Of a stretch of 64,000 nucleotides of DNA, positions 452-3,750 are shown piece after piece (positions within the stretch are counted from its first letter, which is position 1; every line of letters starts with the position of its first letter). Below the pieces are notes generated by a model, which saw nothing but the letters and a program-made list of their open reading frames with translations, made no database searches and was not told the origin of the DNA. The position numbers and the translations under genes are program-made. This stretch comes from Escherichia coli (lineage in GTDB: Bacteria > Pseudomonadota > Gammaproteobacteria > Enterobacterales > Enterobacteriaceae). The DNA is taken from NCBI RefSeq assembly GCF_024298765.1, contig NZ_CP101210.1; one strand, written 5' to 3'.

Positions 452-2848
452 ATGCACGAAAAGAACATCGCCCTGCTTTGTGATGAAGCCGACCGACTTT
501 TGCAACTGAACATTAATCTGCTCCGGCAAATGGTTGAGGAGCCAGATGTGTTATCTGACAGTAAGAACGAAAACAGACTGCTTTTTGATAAACAGAAAGC
601 ACTGAAAAGAATTGAGGAGCTGGAGGGCGAACAAATCAAAACCGCCCGCAGGGAGATGGTGCTGGCTGTTGTCGGCACGATGAAAGCAGGCAAATCAACC
701 ACCATCAACGCCATTGTGGGGCAGGAAATTCTGCCTAACCGTAACCGCCCCATGACCTCTGTACCGACGCTCATCCGCCACGTTCCCGGAAAAACTGAGC
801 CGGTTCTCCATCTGGAACATATTCAGCCTGTCCGCAATTTATTAATCACACTGCAGGAAAAACTCGCCACCCCGGCAGGACAGCAGGTCGCACAGACCCT
901 GCAGCAAACCGGGGATACCCGCGAACTGCTGGATATTCTGACGGATGATGGCTGGCTCAAAAATGAATACCACGGGGAGGAGGAAATCTTTACCGGACTG
1001 GCATCGTTAAACGATCTGGTTCGTCTTGCTGCGGCAATGGGGACTGAATTTCCTTTTGATGAATACGCAGAAGTGCAGAAACTGCCGGTGATCGACGTGG
1101 AATTCAGCCATCTGGTGGGGATGGATGCATGCCAGGGAACACTCACACTGCTGGATACCCCCGGCCCTAATGAGGCCGGACAACCGCAGATGGAAGTGAT
1201 GATGCGGGATCAACTGCAGAAAGCCTCTGCGGTTCTGGCTGTGATGGATTACACCCAGATGAACTCAAAAGCGGATGAAGACGTCCGTAAAGAGCTTAAT
1301 GCCATTGCTGACGTATCAGCCGGCCGCCTGTTTGTACTGGTCAATAAATTTGATGAGAAAGACCGCAATGGCGATGGGGCAGATGCCGTACGCCAGAAAG
1401 TTCCGGCAATGCTGAACAGCGATGTGCTGCCCGCCTCCCGCGTTTATCCCGGATCCTCACGCCAGGCATACCTGGCTAACCGTGCGCTTCATGAGTTACG
1501 GAAAAACGGAACCCTTCCTGTTGATGAAGCCTGGGTCGATGATTTTGTCAGGGAAGCCTTCGGTCGCATGAAAAAAGATTACGTCTGTAAAGACAGCGAA
1601 CTGGCAACTGAAGGGGCGACAGACCTGTGGGAAGGCTCACTTATCGATCAACTGATAACGGAAGTCATACTGAGTTCACACTCCAGAGCGGCGGCACTGG
1701 CGGTTGATTCTGCTGCCGCAAAACTGATGCAGAATGCAGAAAATGTCAGCGAATATCTGTCATTACGCCATCAGGGGCTGCAGCAAAGCATTCAGTCACT
1801 GCAGGCGAATATCACCAGCCTGCTTGCGGATATCCGGAAAATCGCGGACTGTCAGGAGCAGGTGACCGCTGATGTCAGAATGGCCATGGAGGAGATCGAT
1901 GCCAGAACCCGGGAATTACTGACGGGGGTCTGCACCTCACTGGAAGAGGAGCTGAATGACTATTTCAGAACTGGTAAACGCAAAGAACAGCAAATGTTGG
2001 AGGAAGAAGACGCAGAACAACGAAGGTCCCGGTCCGGATTATGGGGAAAGATTTCTCAATGGTCCGGTATCAACAACCCGGGCTGGGAAGATTACAGGAA
2101 ACGAGACTTTGACCCGGAAAACCCCGAGATAACACTAAATAATCGTAGGGAAGCAATTGAATATATAGAGGAAATTGAGTCAACTGTGACCAGCCTGCAC
2201 CGTGAGGCTGAAGCACAGTTCCGGCCTGAGCTGGAGAAAATCGTCAGCGGGATTGAAACAGGTTTTCGTGGCACGGCCCTGTACGCCACAGAAAACATTG
2301 CCGGTCGCATCAATGCCCGCCTGGAGGATGAGGGCTTTACCGTAAAAATCAGTTTTCCGGCAGTCAGTCAGTTACAGACCCGGCTCGCGGTAAAAACAAA
2401 TCTGAGTGCGCTTATGGAGGAAAGAACGGAGACCGTCACCCGTCGCCGTCGGCAGAGTGGCGTATGGGGAACCGTTTGTCGATGGTTTGGCACCAGTGAC
2501 CTGGGCTGGGAAAACTATGACGAGGATGTGAGTCGCAGCGTGATCAATATCAACAAGGTCAGAGAGGAAGTTATGTCACTGACCCGGGCATATTTCGGGG
2601 AGCTGCAGGCATCCATTGAGCAGGATATTAACCAGCCCGTCCGCCAGGAAATCGATGCCTTTTTCTGCGCATTCAGGGAGAAAGTTGAACAACTGCGTAA
2701 CACGCTGATTCAGAGCTCTGAAGATCATAAACGCGATCAGCAGGCACAGGAACGGCTTACCGGGAGACTTCAGGCATTAAATGAAAGGGTTCCTGAGCTC
2801 ATTACTGACAGTAAGGCGCTGAGGGAAGAGCTGGAGACAATGCTGTGA
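452..2848 (+). CDS. Dynamin-like GTPase (bacterial dynamin-like protein family), 798 aa
   Basis: P-loop GTMKAGKST (G75-S82, nt 674-697), LLDTPGPNE switch motif, NKFD G4 motif, long helical C-terminal region; RBS AGGAAGG at 439-445. Confidence 0.85.
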   Translation: MHEKNIALLCDEADRLLQLNINLLRQMVEEPDVLSDSKNENRLLFDKQKALKRIEELEGEQIKTARREMVLAVVGTMKAGKSTTINAIVGQEILPNRNRPMTSVPTLIRHVPGKTEPVLHLEHIQPVRNLLITLQEKLATPAGQQVAQTLQQTGDTRELLDILTDDGWLKNEYHGEEEIFTGLASLNDLVRLAAAMGTEFPFDEYAEVQKLPVIDVEFSHLVGMDACQGTLTLLDTPGPNEAGQPQMEVMMRDQLQKASAVLAVMDYTQMNSKADEDVRKELNAIADVSAGRLFVLVNKFDEKDRNGDGADAVRQKVPAMLNSDVLPASRVYPGSSRQAYLANRALHELRKNGTLPVDEAWVDDFVREAFGRMKKDYVCKDSELATEGATDLWEGSLIDQLITEVILSSHSRAAALAVDSAAAKLMQNAENVSEYLSLRHQGLQQSIQSLQANITSLLADIRKIADCQEQVTADVRMAMEEIDARTRELLTGVCTSLEEELNDYFRTGKRKEQQMLEEEDAEQRRSRSGLWGKISQWSGINNPGWEDYRKRDFDPENPEITLNNRREAIEYIEEIESTVTSLHREAEAQFRPELEKIVSGIETGFRGTALYATENIAGRINARLEDEGFTVKISFPAVSQLQTRLAVKTNLSALMEERTETVTRRRRQSGVWGTVCRWFGTSDLGWENYDEDVSRSVININKVREEVMSLTRAYFGELQASIEQDINQPVRQEIDAFFCAFREKVEQLRNTLIQSSEDHKRDQQAQERLTGRLQALNERVPELITDSKALREELETML

Positions 2849-3750
2849 CTTCACCATTTATTCAACAAATTGCTGATAACCGGGTATGTCAGGTACTCAC
2901 CTGTCTTCCTGAAAAATTTGTGGTTGATTTCGCAAACGGAATCGATGTTGCACAGGAGCATATCCGCACGGCCAGAGAGCGCACGTTCTTCCGGCGTTTA
3001 AAAGAGGGACTGACCGGCGAAGGCGCTGCACGGCAGAATGCCATCAATGCTTCGCTTGCACAGGGCGTTGAGGCGTCCCTGCGCTGGCTGACGGAGCTGA
3101 CAACGTCACTTGCCACCACAAACTACGCGATTACCCGGGTAAACGACAGGGTCAGTTCACTGGTCAGTGATACTGCCAGGCTGGCGCATTATTCCGCAGA
3201 TACACGGGAGCAGTTACTCATCCTGGCCGATCAGGTTCACCATAAACTGAATCATCTTGAAGAAAAACTCCACCGTGTTGACCAGGTTCAGCGGGCGCAG
3301 TTACATCTTGAGCAGATATTCTCATGGTGGAGCGCCGGGCGATACGCGTCATTTTCCCCTGCCGGACGTTGTTATGTGGCACTTGAAGAGCTTCGCTGGG
3401 GCGCGTTTGGTGATGTGATACGTCAGGGCGAAACAGGCCAGGTTAACCAGCTACTGGATATTCTCAGACATAAAGCATTAACGCAGATGGCACAGGAGAG
3501 TGGCGGTAGTGCAACCGTGCGTCTGAACACTCTGGACTGGCTTGGTGGTCAGGGCCGGGAGCAGGCAGATAACGAGTGGCATGACGCGATTAACTGGCTG
3601 GGAGACTGGTGCAGTGAAGAGCAGCATCCGGTGATCTGGTCAACCACGCAGGCTGCAGAACACTTACCGGTTCGCATGCCTCGCCTCTGCTCTGCAGAAC
3701 GCCTCTCTGAAAGTATGGTCGATGAAATATTTCAGAAGGGGGCTGCATGA
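2845..3750 (+). CDS. Hypothetical protein, 301 aa, translationally coupled between the dynamin-like GTPase and patatin genes
   Basis: GTG start at 2845 overlaps upstream stop (GTGA); its stop overlaps the downstream ATG (ATGA at 3747-3750); no recognisable catalytic motif. Confidence 0.7.
   Translation: MTSPFIQQIADNRVCQVLTCLPEKFVVDFANGIDVAQEHIRTARERTFFRRLKEGLTGEGAARQNAINASLAQGVEASLRWLTELTTSLATTNYAITRVNDRVSSLVSDTARLAHYSADTREQLLILADQVHHKLNHLEEKLHRVDQVQRAQLHLEQIFSWWSAGRYASFSPAGRCYVALEELRWGAFGDVIRQGETGQVNQLLDILRHKALTQMAQESGGSATVRLNTLDWLGGQGREQADNEWHDAINWLGDWCSEEQHPVIWSTTQAAEHLPVRMPRLCSAERLSESMVDEIFQKGAA

What the first reader, a model, noticed from the sequence alone, without database searches (positions are those of the whole stretch)
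2845..3750. Orphan 301-aa middle gene tightly coupled between the GTPase and the lipase
Its start overlaps the dynamin stop and its stop overlaps the patatin start, implying stoichiometric co-expression. It has no recognisable catalytic motif. The central region (about residues 95-150, rich in L/A/R/E/Q) looks helical and coiled-coil-like. It could be an adaptor, a sensor, or an inhibitor holding the lipase inactive until triggered.
Basis: inference. Interest (0 to 1): 0.5.

Follow-up and report, generated by a model that had tools for sequence, protein, structure and literature searches.

The report
RdcB-like adaptor in GTPase–lipase operon
The "orphan" middle gene is not an orphan: it belongs to the RdcB/YjcZ family of helper proteins that always partner a dynamin-like GTPase, and here it most likely links that GTPase to a membrane-degrading lipase in a mobile, probably anti-phage, three-gene module whose function has never been tested.

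Summary
A 301-aa ORF lies at 2845-3750 (+). Its GTG shares GTGA with the dynamin stop, and its stop shares ATGA with the patatin start.

The "orphan" label is wrong. The protein matches Pfam PF13990 (YjcZ/RdcB) over its full length (E 5.5e-71) and is 31% identical to E. coli K-12 RdcB, the two-hybrid partner of the dynamin-like GTPase RdcA. The upstream GTPase is an RdcA/CrfC paralogue.

In 78 of 78 informative genomes, a YjcZ-family gene sits directly behind a dynamin-like gene. Two branches exist:
- A patatin-linked trio, found in Gamma- and Betaproteobacteria, on plasmids, and in 45% of complete E. coli genomes.
- The lipase-less RdcAB duo, found only in Enterobacteriaceae.

No solved structure resembles the protein, and no catalytic domain was detected.

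Several lines suggest its long helix engages the lipase:
- conservation specific to the trio branch;
- a confidence gain when the protein is co-folded as a fusion with the patatin;
- a dynamin-less JukA::YjcZ fusion that is still followed by a patatin.

The neighbouring genes point to phage defence: HEC-08, WYL regulators and JukA.

A 2026 paper already noted the operon. Its function has not been tested.

The parts
341..370 (+). Promoter-like site upstream of the operon (TTAATA-18-TATCAT)
   Evidence: Consensus scan. The match is weak (9 of 12) and such sites are not enriched over shuffled sequence, so the position is suggestive only.
350..397 (.). Three copies of CGATCGTT (355-362, 373-380, 386-393), a possible operator between the promoter-like site and the first gene
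   Evidence: This is read directly from the sequence; function was not tested.
452..2848 (+). Dynamin-like GTPase gene, an RdcA/CrfC paralogue (798 aa)
   Evidence: Pfam Dynamin_N E 3e-18. NCBIfam CrfC scores 566.7 bits, below the equivalog cut-off of 1146. The G1 motif GTMKAGKS (75), DTPG (235) and NKFD (298) are intact.
2845..3750 (+). The finding: an RdcB/YjcZ-family gene (301 aa) of the patatin-linked branch
   Evidence: PF13990 E 5.5e-71 over residues 26-296. 31% identity to K-12 RdcB over 283 aa. All-helical AlphaFold2 model. No relative in the PDB.
2845..2848 (+). GTGA start/stop overlap between the dynamin and RdcB-like genes
   Evidence: The same 4-nt overlap occurs in 66 of 79 related loci.
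3747..3750 (+). ATGA start/stop overlap between the RdcB-like and patatin genes
   Evidence: A 4- or 8-nt overlap occurs in 27 of 34 related loci.
3747..4817 (+). Patatin-like phospholipase gene (356 aa), the presumed effector
   Evidence: PF01734 E 3.3e-25. GGGAVG (13), GASIG containing Ser42, and DGG (223) are intact. A long C-terminal helix is predicted at residues 296-355.
4837..4858 (+). Terminator-like hairpin plus T-run, 20 nt after the patatin stop

Best explanation
The gene encodes an all-helical RdcB/YjcZ-family protein with no detectable enzymatic domain. It is the obligate accessory subunit of the dynamin-like GTPase encoded just upstream, and it belongs to the branch of the family that is always followed by a patatin-like phospholipase.

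Proposed mechanism. One step is shown only for a paralogue; the rest are inferred.
1. The three genes are co-transcribed and translationally coupled. This follows from the sequence and from conserved gene order. Co-regulation was seen by RNA-seq in another strain.
2. The RdcB-like protein binds the GTPase. The binding surface would be the parts conserved in both branches: the N-terminal K24-F25-x-V27-D28 motif and the C-terminal domain carrying W162, G165, R175-C176, E182-L183-x-W185-G186 and G189. Binding is shown only for the paralogous RdcA-RdcB pair and is inferred here.
3. Its long central helix (about residues 58-163) engages the lipase, probably the lipase's long C-terminal helix. One face of this helix is conserved only in the patatin-linked branch (Q64, N68, L71, L82, V99, R102, R121). 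This step is inferred.
4. The nucleotide state or oligomerisation of the GTPase then decides when the lipase acts on membrane phospholipids. This is by analogy with RdcA/RdcB, which activate the membrane enzyme DgcE only when GTP can be hydrolysed.
5. The module is mobile, lies among defence genes, and in some genomes is joined to the phage-infection sensor JukA. Its most likely role is therefore anti-phage: abortive infection, or an attack at the site of phage entry.
For: **Family membership**
- PF13990, E 5.5e-71, full length.
- 31% identity to K-12 RdcB.
- The GTPase scores 566.7 bits against the CrfC/RdcA model.

**The paralogue's function (PMC6510439)**
- RdcA binds RdcB tightly in a two-hybrid assay.
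- Both are needed to activate DgcE.
- The GTPase-dead T103D variant loses activity.

**Obligate partnership with the GTPase**
- A dynamin gene lies directly upstream in 78 of 78 genome loci that have upstream sequence.
- More distant metagenomic members show the same arrangement.

**Partnership with the lipase**
- A patatin gene lies directly downstream in all 32 trio-clade genome loci.
- Pairwise-distance correlation between the middle protein and patatin is 0.88, against a maximum of 0.26 in permutations.
- Positions conserved only in the trio branch cluster in residues 31-121.
- In a fused co-fold with a genome-paired alignment, pLDDT of residues 71-120 rose from 48-60 to 69-92. The patatin C-terminal helix reached 81-90.
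- A natural variant (L090) lacks any dynamin yet keeps YjcZ followed by patatin with a 4-nt overlap. There the YjcZ domain is fused to a JukA module (PADLOC 8e-74).

**Defence and mobile-element context**
- The locus sits in an island at tRNA-Asp.
- A 63%-identical copy occurs on IncF and other plasmids.
- A HEC-08 candidate defence gene lies upstream in E. coli (1e-173).
- WYL/WCX regulators lie directly upstream in 3 loci.
- JukA lies directly downstream in 3 loci.
- The Juk preprint reports JukA fused to GTPase, patatin and an unknown coiled-coil domain.
- The operon is strongly up-regulated in Kapi1 lysogens.

**Catalytic motifs** of both the GTPase and the patatin are intact.
Against: - No experiment exists for any member of the patatin-linked branch.
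- The co-fold evidence is indirect.
  - The tool returns no coordinates or PAE, so no contact was seen.
  - The two runs used different alignments, which alone could change pLDDT.
  - pTM was only 0.55.
- The high mirror-tree correlation is expected for any three genes inherited together, so it does not prove physical contact.
- PADLOC v2 has no model for the middle gene, and the trio matches no catalogued system.
- The defence context is guilt by association in a minority of loci. Two of 107 neighbouring ORFs were GGDEF proteins.
- Invariant Cys, Glu and Arg residues leave room for an unrecognised enzymatic activity.
Confidence: 0.55

Rival explanations
1. It does what its annotation says: it is a second RdcB that, with its GTPase, regulates a diguanylate cyclase such as DgcE, and so controls c-di-GMP and biofilm formation. 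On this reading the patatin is incidental.
For: - It belongs to the same Pfam family and shows the same GTPase-partner gene order as RdcAB.
- PGAP gives it that name.
- Two GGDEF proteins occur among 107 neighbouring ORFs in related loci.
Against: - Identity to RdcB is only 31%, and the GTPase falls below the CrfC equivalog cut-off.
- It forms a clade separate from the RdcAB orthologues in an unrooted NJ tree.
- Twelve positions are conserved only in the trio branch and 22 only in the duo branch.
- A patatin always follows it, with overlapping or near-overlapping codons.
- It sits on islands and plasmids rather than at the yjdM-proP core locus.
- The trio occurs in Chromatiales, Methylococcales and Burkholderiales, far outside the range of the duo.
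Confidence: 0.07
2. It acts mainly as an antitoxin-like inhibitor. It binds the patatin and keeps it inactive until it is removed or remodelled, for example by the GTPase. This is the first reader's 'inhibitor' option, and it can coexist with the adaptor model.
For: - The gene order and start/stop overlap (middle gene first, then lipase) resemble antitoxin-toxin pairs.
- YjcZ-patatin persists as a pair without a dynamin in L090.
- The co-fold signal is consistent with binding.
Against: - At 300 aa with a conserved globular domain, it is larger and more constrained than typical antitoxins.
- The paralogue RdcB is needed for activation, not inhibition.
- No data on toxicity exist.
Confidence: 0.2
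3. The trio is a membrane-maintenance or remodelling machine rather than an immune system. The dynamin-like protein tethers or repairs membrane, the lipase edits lipids locally, and the RdcB-like protein couples the two.
For: - Bacterial dynamins have documented roles in membrane surveillance and vesicle formation (cited in PMC12922286).
- Many trio loci lie among ordinary chromosomal genes, such as IleRS or FecR/TonB neighbours.
- No fourth gene is conserved across loci.
Against: - Distribution is patchy and accessory: 45% of E. coli genomes, plus plasmids and tRNA-linked islands.
- Neighbours recur among WYL regulators, JukA, HEC-08 and SNF2 or restriction-modification genes.
- According to the cited paper, RdcA is soluble rather than a classical membrane dynamin.
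Confidence: 0.15
4. The protein is itself an enzyme of an unrecognised type, using the invariant R175-C176 and E181-E182 cluster.
For: C176, E181, E182, R193 and R286 are invariant, and R175 nearly so, across 34 diverse sequences. The C-terminal domain that carries them is predicted with high confidence.
Against: - In the Synergistaceae-bin homologue (L044), Cys176 and its neighbours are replaced ('AGSLCAAMEELRWG', sequence printed).
- Conserved Trp/Gly/Leu-rich motifs are more typical of a packing or interface core.
Confidence: 0.05

Closest known systems
RdcA/RdcB (YjdA/CrfC and YjcZ) of E. coli K-12
   Same: - Same Pfam family for the small protein, and the same dynamin-like GTPase family for the large one.
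- Same gene order, with a 4-nt overlap.
- The small protein is a soluble accessory factor that binds the GTPase.
   Different: - Only 31% identity, and a separate clade.
- RdcAB has no downstream effector gene. It acts in trans on the diguanylate cyclase DgcE, belongs to the flagellar regulon at a core locus, and is confined to Enterobacteriaceae.
- The window's pair is welded to a patatin lipase, is mobile, and is spread over Gamma- and Betaproteobacteria.
Juk (JukA sensor plus variable effector), an anti-jumbo-phage system
   Same: - In related loci a JukA gene directly follows the trio (L019, L048, L009).
- In L090, JukA is fused to the YjcZ domain ahead of a patatin.
- The Juk preprint lists GTPase, patatin and an unknown coiled-coil domain as JukA fusion partners, and WYL regulators as frequent neighbours.
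   Different: - The window's operon has no JukA next to it.
- JukB is absent.
- No member containing a YjcZ domain was among the operons reported as tested.
Eleos, formerly 'Dynamins' (LeoA/LeoBC), a defence system
   Same: It uses bacterial dynamin-like GTPases and lies on mobile or defence islands.
   Different: - LeoBC matches the GTPase only weakly (18.9 bits) and LeoA does not match at all.
- Eleos has no YjcZ or patatin component.
Patatin effectors of CBASS (CapV) and other regulated patatin lipases
   Same: The lipase has the same fold and the same catalytic Ser-Asp dyad. The concept is also shared: a latent phospholipase is unleashed by an upstream signal.
   Different: - The CBASS lipase model scores 18.3 bits against a cut-off of 200.
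- There is no cyclase or nucleotide-signal gene.
- The proposed activator is a protein complex, not a small molecule.

Membership tests
Pfam PF13990 YjcZ-like / RdcB family | Match to the family HMM above the gathering threshold, over its full length | tested here: met
   239.5 bits against a cut-off of 27. Residues 26-296 align to profile positions 1-272 of 272.
Pfam PF13990 YjcZ-like / RdcB family | Stand-alone protein of about 300 aa, encoded directly downstream of a dynamin-like GTPase gene | tested here: met
   The window shows a GTGA overlap. 78 of 78 informative genome loci share the arrangement. Family members are almost uniformly 290-320 aa.
RdcB orthologue (regulator of diguanylate cyclase DgcE) | Orthologue-level similarity to K-12 RdcB, and an RdcA partner that reaches the equivalog cut-off | tested here: not met
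   31% identity. The GTPase scores 566.7 against a cut-off of 1146 for NF007368 CrfC. The two branches separate in an unrooted NJ tree without bootstrap support.
RdcB orthologue (regulator of diguanylate cyclase DgcE) | Core-genome locus between yjdM and proP, with no effector gene downstream | tested here: not met
   The K-12-type locus is shown. The window's copy lies in an island at tRNA-Asp and is followed by a patatin gene.
RdcB orthologue (regulator of diguanylate cyclase DgcE) | Required, together with the GTPase, for activation of DgcE through its MASE1 domain | not testable with these tools
   This needs genetics or two-hybrid assays. It has been shown only for K-12 RdcAB.
Eleos/Dynamins defence system (LeoA + LeoBC) | LeoA and LeoBC proteins detected by their models | tested here: not met
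   LeoBC gives E 1.6e-4 at 18.9 bits. LeoA gives no match.
CBASS with patatin effector | CD-NTase gene in the operon, and a CapV-type lipase above the cut-off | tested here: not met
   The operon has only three genes and none is a cyclase. NF041079 scores 18.3 against a cut-off of 200.
Juk family (JukA-based systems) | A JukA (YaaW-like) sensor encoded in the operon or fused to it | tested here: not met
   No JukA match in the ORFs flanking the window's operon. The feature is met in related loci L019, L048, L009 and L090.
Type II toxin-antitoxin-like pair (middle protein as antitoxin of the lipase) | The toxin is lethal alone and is neutralised by direct binding of the upstream gene product | not testable with these tools
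   Only the gene order and overlap are compatible.

The most novel reading that the evidence does not exclude
The RdcB/YjcZ domain is a dedicated adaptor that plugs a latent patatin phospholipase into interchangeable upstream modules: a dynamin-like GTPase in most cases, and the phage-infection sensor JukA in some. This would define a previously uncatalogued family of GTPase-gated lipase immune systems, present in about 45% of sequenced E. coli. The well-studied c-di-GMP regulators RdcA/RdcB of E. coli would then be a lineage-restricted derivative of this mobile system that lost its lipase and was re-targeted to the membrane enzyme DgcE.
Probability: 0.3. Interest if true: 0.7.

Novelty: new variant of a known kind. 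Interest (0 to 1): 0.5.

Why it matters
- **Prevalence.** The operon occurs in 2442 of 5426 complete E. coli genomes and on IncF and other plasmids of Klebsiella and Enterobacter. None of its three proteins has been tested.
- **Misleading annotation.** The current name, 'diguanylate cyclase regulator', probably misdescribes the function, and it propagates through thousands of genomes.
- **If the adaptor model is right.**
  - It would add a protein-gated (GTPase-gated) way of controlling a suicide lipase to the known small-molecule-gated ones.
  - It would give a function to the 'unknown coiled-coil domain' seen fused to JukA.
  - It would offer an evolutionary origin for the RdcAB input into c-di-GMP signalling.
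- **Testability.** The operon is 4.4 kb, and point mutants can be designed from the conserved residues.

Tried and rejected
2. **Idea that the middle protein is a duplicated dynamin stalk.** hhalign of the family profile against the GTPase profile gave a probability of 1.6%. Rejected.
3. **Rooting the GTPase tree, to ask whether the lipase-less duo derives from the trio.** The 'outgroup' I chose (L009:910-3480 and L048:898-3468) turned out to be an SNF2 helicase, not a dynamin. The bootstrap figures are therefore void. The midpoint-rooted NJ trees are only suggestive, and the direction of evolution remains unresolved.
4. **Phage origin.** No tblastn match in 50,697 phage records.
5. **Known defence catalogue.** PADLOC gave no match for the middle gene, and only weak LeoBC and CBASS-lipase matches for its neighbours.
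6. **Search for a conserved fourth gene.** Clustering 107 flanking ORFs from 25 trio loci found none. The largest cluster was JukA, in 3 loci.
7. **Literature.** Six searches for a functional study of the dynamin/patatin operon found only the 2026 transcriptome paper, plus a passing mention in an O118 genomics paper.
8. **Second copy.** The window holds no second copy of the operon.
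Full report
**1. The observation**

- Bases 2845-2848 read GTGA. The start codon therefore shares three bases with the TGA stop of the 798-aa upstream ORF (452..2848).
- Bases 3747-3750 read ATGA. The ATG of the 356-aa downstream ORF (3747..4817) therefore overlaps the middle gene's stop.
- Purine-rich Shine-Dalgarno-like sequences precede both internal starts: GGAG at 2833-2836 and AAGGGGG at 3736-3742.
- A promoter-like site lies at 341-370. A hairpin with a T-run lies at 4837-4858, just after the third gene, and no other plus-strand terminator candidate falls between 452 and 4498.

The three ORFs therefore look like one operon. RefSeq annotates the same three CDS with the same boundaries on identical DNA.

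The gene is real.
- It has 549 homologues, all carrying the same Pfam domain.
- Against E. albertii it shows 13 synonymous and 4 non-synonymous codon differences.

**2. It is not an orphan**

- The protein matches Pfam PF13990 (YjcZ-like) from end to end: E 5.5e-71, 239.5 bits against a gathering score of 27.
- It is 31% identical over 283 residues to E. coli K-12 YjcZ, now called RdcB.
- The upstream GTPase scores 566.7 bits against the NCBIfam model for CrfC (also called YjdA or RdcA). That is far above noise but below the equivalog cut-off of 1146, so it is a paralogue.
- PGAP already names the middle gene 'diguanylate cyclase regulator RdcB family protein'.

What is known about the paralogues comes from Pfiffer et al. 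2019 (PMC6510439).
- RdcA is a soluble dynamin-like GTPase that self-associates.
- It binds RdcB tightly in a two-hybrid assay.
- It docks on the MASE1 domain of the diguanylate cyclase DgcE.
- Both proteins are needed to activate DgcE.
- A variant that cannot hydrolyse GTP (T103D) is inactive.

**3. Two branches of one family**

A scan of 100,044 species genomes returned 79 loci. I located homologues of the window's three proteins in each of them.

| Feature | Patatin-linked trio | RdcAB-type duo |
|---|---|---|
| Loci | 32 | 47 |
| Dynamin-like gene directly upstream | yes (one locus uninformative) | yes |
| Patatin gene directly downstream | yes, in all | no |
| Taxa | Escherichia, Pantoea, Erwinia, Budvicia, Serratia, Pseudomonas, Chromatiales, Marinospirillum, HdN1, and Betaproteobacteria (Macromonas, Paenacidovorax, Aquaspirillum, Gallionella) | Enterobacteriaceae only (Buttiauxella, Cedecea, Enterobacter, Kosakonia, Citrobacter and others) |

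- Every locus with upstream sequence (78 of 78) has a dynamin-like gene directly in front of the YjcZ-family gene.
- More distant metagenomic members are also trios.
- The dynamin-to-YjcZ junction is a 4-nt overlap in 66 of 79 loci. The YjcZ-to-patatin junction is a 4- or 8-nt overlap in 27 of 34.
- The three proteins diverge in step. Pairwise-distance correlations are 0.84-0.88, highest for the middle protein with patatin, against at most 0.26 in permutations.
- In an unrooted NJ tree the middle proteins of trio and duo separate cleanly.
- Whether the duo is derived from a trio could not be decided. My outgroup for a rooted test proved to be an SNF2 helicase, so one search is void.
- The family is small: 473 clusters at 50% identity among 1.84 billion representatives, nearly all 290-320 aa.

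**4. Mobility and prevalence**

- The operon is present at 80% coverage or more in 2442 of 5426 complete E. coli genomes, usually as one copy and in up to five places.
- In the window and in APEC O2-211 it lies in an island that ends at tRNA-Asp (window 16618-16694). The island also carries an integrase fragment and the DUF932, antirestriction, JAB and CbtA/CbeA module.
- A copy with 63% protein identity for the middle gene sits on IncF and other plasmids of Klebsiella, Enterobacter and E. coli, flanked by insertion sequences.
- No phage record encodes a homologue.

**5. What the protein looks like**

AlphaFold2 with 34 homologues gives an all-helical model with mean pLDDT 70.8.
- The C-terminal domain (about residues 121-300) is predicted confidently.
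- The N-terminal 120 residues are predicted poorly.
- A long helical pair spans 59-113 and 118-163.

The alignment shows sharply conserved motifs:
- LPEKFVVDFANGIDV near the N-terminus;
- W-x-AGR...GRCY-x-x-LEELRWG-x-FGD in the C-terminal domain;
- LP-x-x-MPRL-x-SAER near the C-terminus.

Comparing the two branches:
- 24 positions are conserved in both. They concentrate in K24-F25-x-V27-D28 and in the C-terminal domain (W162, G165, R175, C176, E182, L183, W185, G186, G189, W232, P262, P279, R286, E294).
- 12 positions are conserved only in the trio. All but one lie in residues 31-121 (N31, I33, R41, G58, Q64, N68, L71, L82, V99, R102, R121).
- From residue 64 to 102 these, together with the shared L79, L85 and A95, recur every three or four residues. 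That spacing marks one face of a helix.

I read the shared set as the fold and the GTPase-binding surface, and the trio-only stripe as the surface for the trio-specific partner, the lipase. This is inference.

**6. A test of lipase contact**

I fused the middle protein and the patatin with a (GGGGS)6 linker, using 26 genome-paired sequences, and predicted the chimera.

| Region | Middle protein alone | Fusion |
|---|---|---|
| Residues 71-120, pLDDT per block of ten | 55, 54, 60, 55, 48 | 69, 79, 88, 92, 92 |
| Residues 21-40, pLDDT | 48 | 66 |
| Central helices | hairpin 59-113 / 118-163 | single helix 58-163 |
| Patatin C-terminal helix (patatin 296-355), pLDDT | not applicable | 81-90 |

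This is what one would expect if the two long helices pack together. It remains indirect for three reasons:
- the tool gives no coordinates or PAE;
- the alignments of the two runs differed;
- pTM was only 0.55.

**7. Natural experiments**

- A 532-aa protein (P0178, locus L090) carries a full YjcZ domain fused behind a module that matches PADLOC JukA (E 8e-74; Pfam DUF3944 plus Ubiq_cyt_C_chap, that is, YaaW-like).
- A patatin gene follows it with a 4-nt overlap, and no dynamin gene lies within 6 kb. The YjcZ-patatin pairing therefore survives replacement of the GTPase by another upstream module.
- A stand-alone JukA gene follows the patatin directly in three trio loci: L019 (Pseudomonas), L048 (Erwinia), and L009 (Pantoea, where it is split).

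JukA is the sensor of the Juk anti-jumbo-phage system. According to the preprint (10.1101/2022.09.17.508391):
- it moves to the site of phage ejection and recruits variable effectors;
- WYL regulators are its commonest neighbours.

The unnamed coiled-coil domain may be YjcZ. I could not check the supplementary figure.

Another variant, P0261, has four tandem 33-aa repeats inserted in the long helix. This fits a stalk or spacer role for that region.

**8. Context**

No fourth gene is conserved across trio loci. The neighbours are typical of defence and mobile regions:
- WYL/WCX regulators directly upstream on the same strand in L018, L028 and L038;
- SNF2/DrmD-like helicases, a type I methylase, integrases, IS elements and AcaB;
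- in the E. coli island, a full-length match to the PADLOC candidate HEC-08 (E 1e-173) about 0.9 kb upstream of the GTPase gene, just outside the window.

- They lie next to EcoKI and Druantia.
- The authors proposed a role in defence (PMC12922286).

No functional test was found in the literature.

**9. Most likely mechanism**

- The GTPase has intact G1, G3 and G4 motifs.
- The lipase has its oxyanion GGG, its GxSxG serine (Ser42) and its DGG aspartate.

I propose that the RdcB-like protein is a non-catalytic adaptor. One surface holds the GTPase, as shown for the paralogue. The long helix holds the lipase, which is inferred. The nucleotide-dependent assembly state of the GTPase then controls lipase access to membrane phospholipids. 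The parallel is RdcA/RdcB, which switch on a membrane enzyme only when GTP is hydrolysed.

The trigger is unknown. The candidates are a fall in GTP, membrane perturbation, or a phage-derived cue. The outcome, cell suicide or local attack, is also unknown.

Rivals considered:
- an antitoxin-like inhibitor of the lipase, which is compatible with much of the same evidence;
- a housekeeping membrane-remodelling machine;
- a true second regulator of a diguanylate cyclase, as the annotation implies;
- an unrecognised enzyme.

**10. Verdict**

- The coordinates and the coupling are confirmed.
- 'Orphan' is refuted.
- 'Adaptor' is the best-supported reading.
- The gene is a new variant of a known kind: an RdcA/RdcB-type GTPase pair hard-wired to a phospholipase. 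It is already noticed in the literature and in annotation pipelines, but it is uncharacterised and probably misnamed.
- Interest is moderate. The module is common in E. coli, easy to test, and may link dynamin-like GTPases, JukA sensing and lipase effectors.

Noticed in passing
window 350-397: Three copies of CGATCGTT (355-362, 373-380, 386-393; CGATCG is itself palindromic) lie between the promoter-like site and the first gene of the operon. They could be an operator, which would be relevant to the reported induction of the operon in Kapi1 lysogens.
   Followed up: partly
L090 6001-8630 (protein P0178 plus the downstream gene): A dynamin-less variant. A JukA/YaaW-like module (DUF3944 plus Ubiq_cyt_C_chap; PADLOC JukA 8e-74) is fused to a full YjcZ domain. 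A patatin gene follows with a 4-nt overlap.
   Followed up: partly
L019 7993-8727; L048 8004-8825; L009 8034-8837: A stand-alone JukA homologue lies directly downstream of the patatin gene, on the same strand, in three trio loci. In L009 it is split into two ORFs.
   Followed up: partly
L001 10027-11127 (about 0.9 kb upstream of the window's first gene; outside the window): A 366-aa 'hypothetical protein' is a full-length match to the PADLOC candidate defence gene HEC-08 (DUF3644), E 1e-173. It lies immediately upstream of the operon in the E. coli island.
   Followed up: no
window 1-234 (+): This is the C-terminal end of a 144-aa ORF whose product has only a P-loop (weak RsgA, MMR_HSR1 and Dynamin_N matches). 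It is possibly a remnant of a GTPase gene.
   Followed up: no
L018 1392-2282; L028 1827-2861; L038 2591-3520: WYL plus WCX domain regulators (BrxR/CapW-like) lie directly upstream of the trio on the same strand, in three betaproteobacterial loci.
   Followed up: partly
protein P0261 (426 aa): A YjcZ-family member with four tandem 33-aa repeats (FAKVDGQISGLSEDLNQVKGVVGNLQNDVHHK) inserted in the long central helix.
   Followed up: no
L044 927-5993; L022 3026-5986: Unusually long dynamin-like ORFs lie upstream of the YjcZ gene: 1688 aa in a Synergistaceae-labelled bin, with LeoBC and LeoA-like matches, and 986 aa in a Comamonadaceae genome.
   Followed up: no
window 4907-6985 (+): Four small ORFs lie downstream of the operon (168, 212, 85 and 161 aa). 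Several have hydrophobic, signal-peptide-like N-termini. None matches Pfam or PADLOC.
   Followed up: partly
patatin residues 95-125 (window about 4029-4121): A hydrophobic, variable insert in the patatin is predicted with low confidence (pLDDT 42-46). It may be a lid or a membrane-binding loop.
   Followed up: no
L009 910-3480; L048 898-3468: An 857-aa SNF2 helicase (DrmD/DpdE/PDC-M27C-like) and a 300-aa partner lie directly upstream of the trio in Pantoea and Erwinia. I first mistook the helicase for a dynamin.
   Followed up: partly
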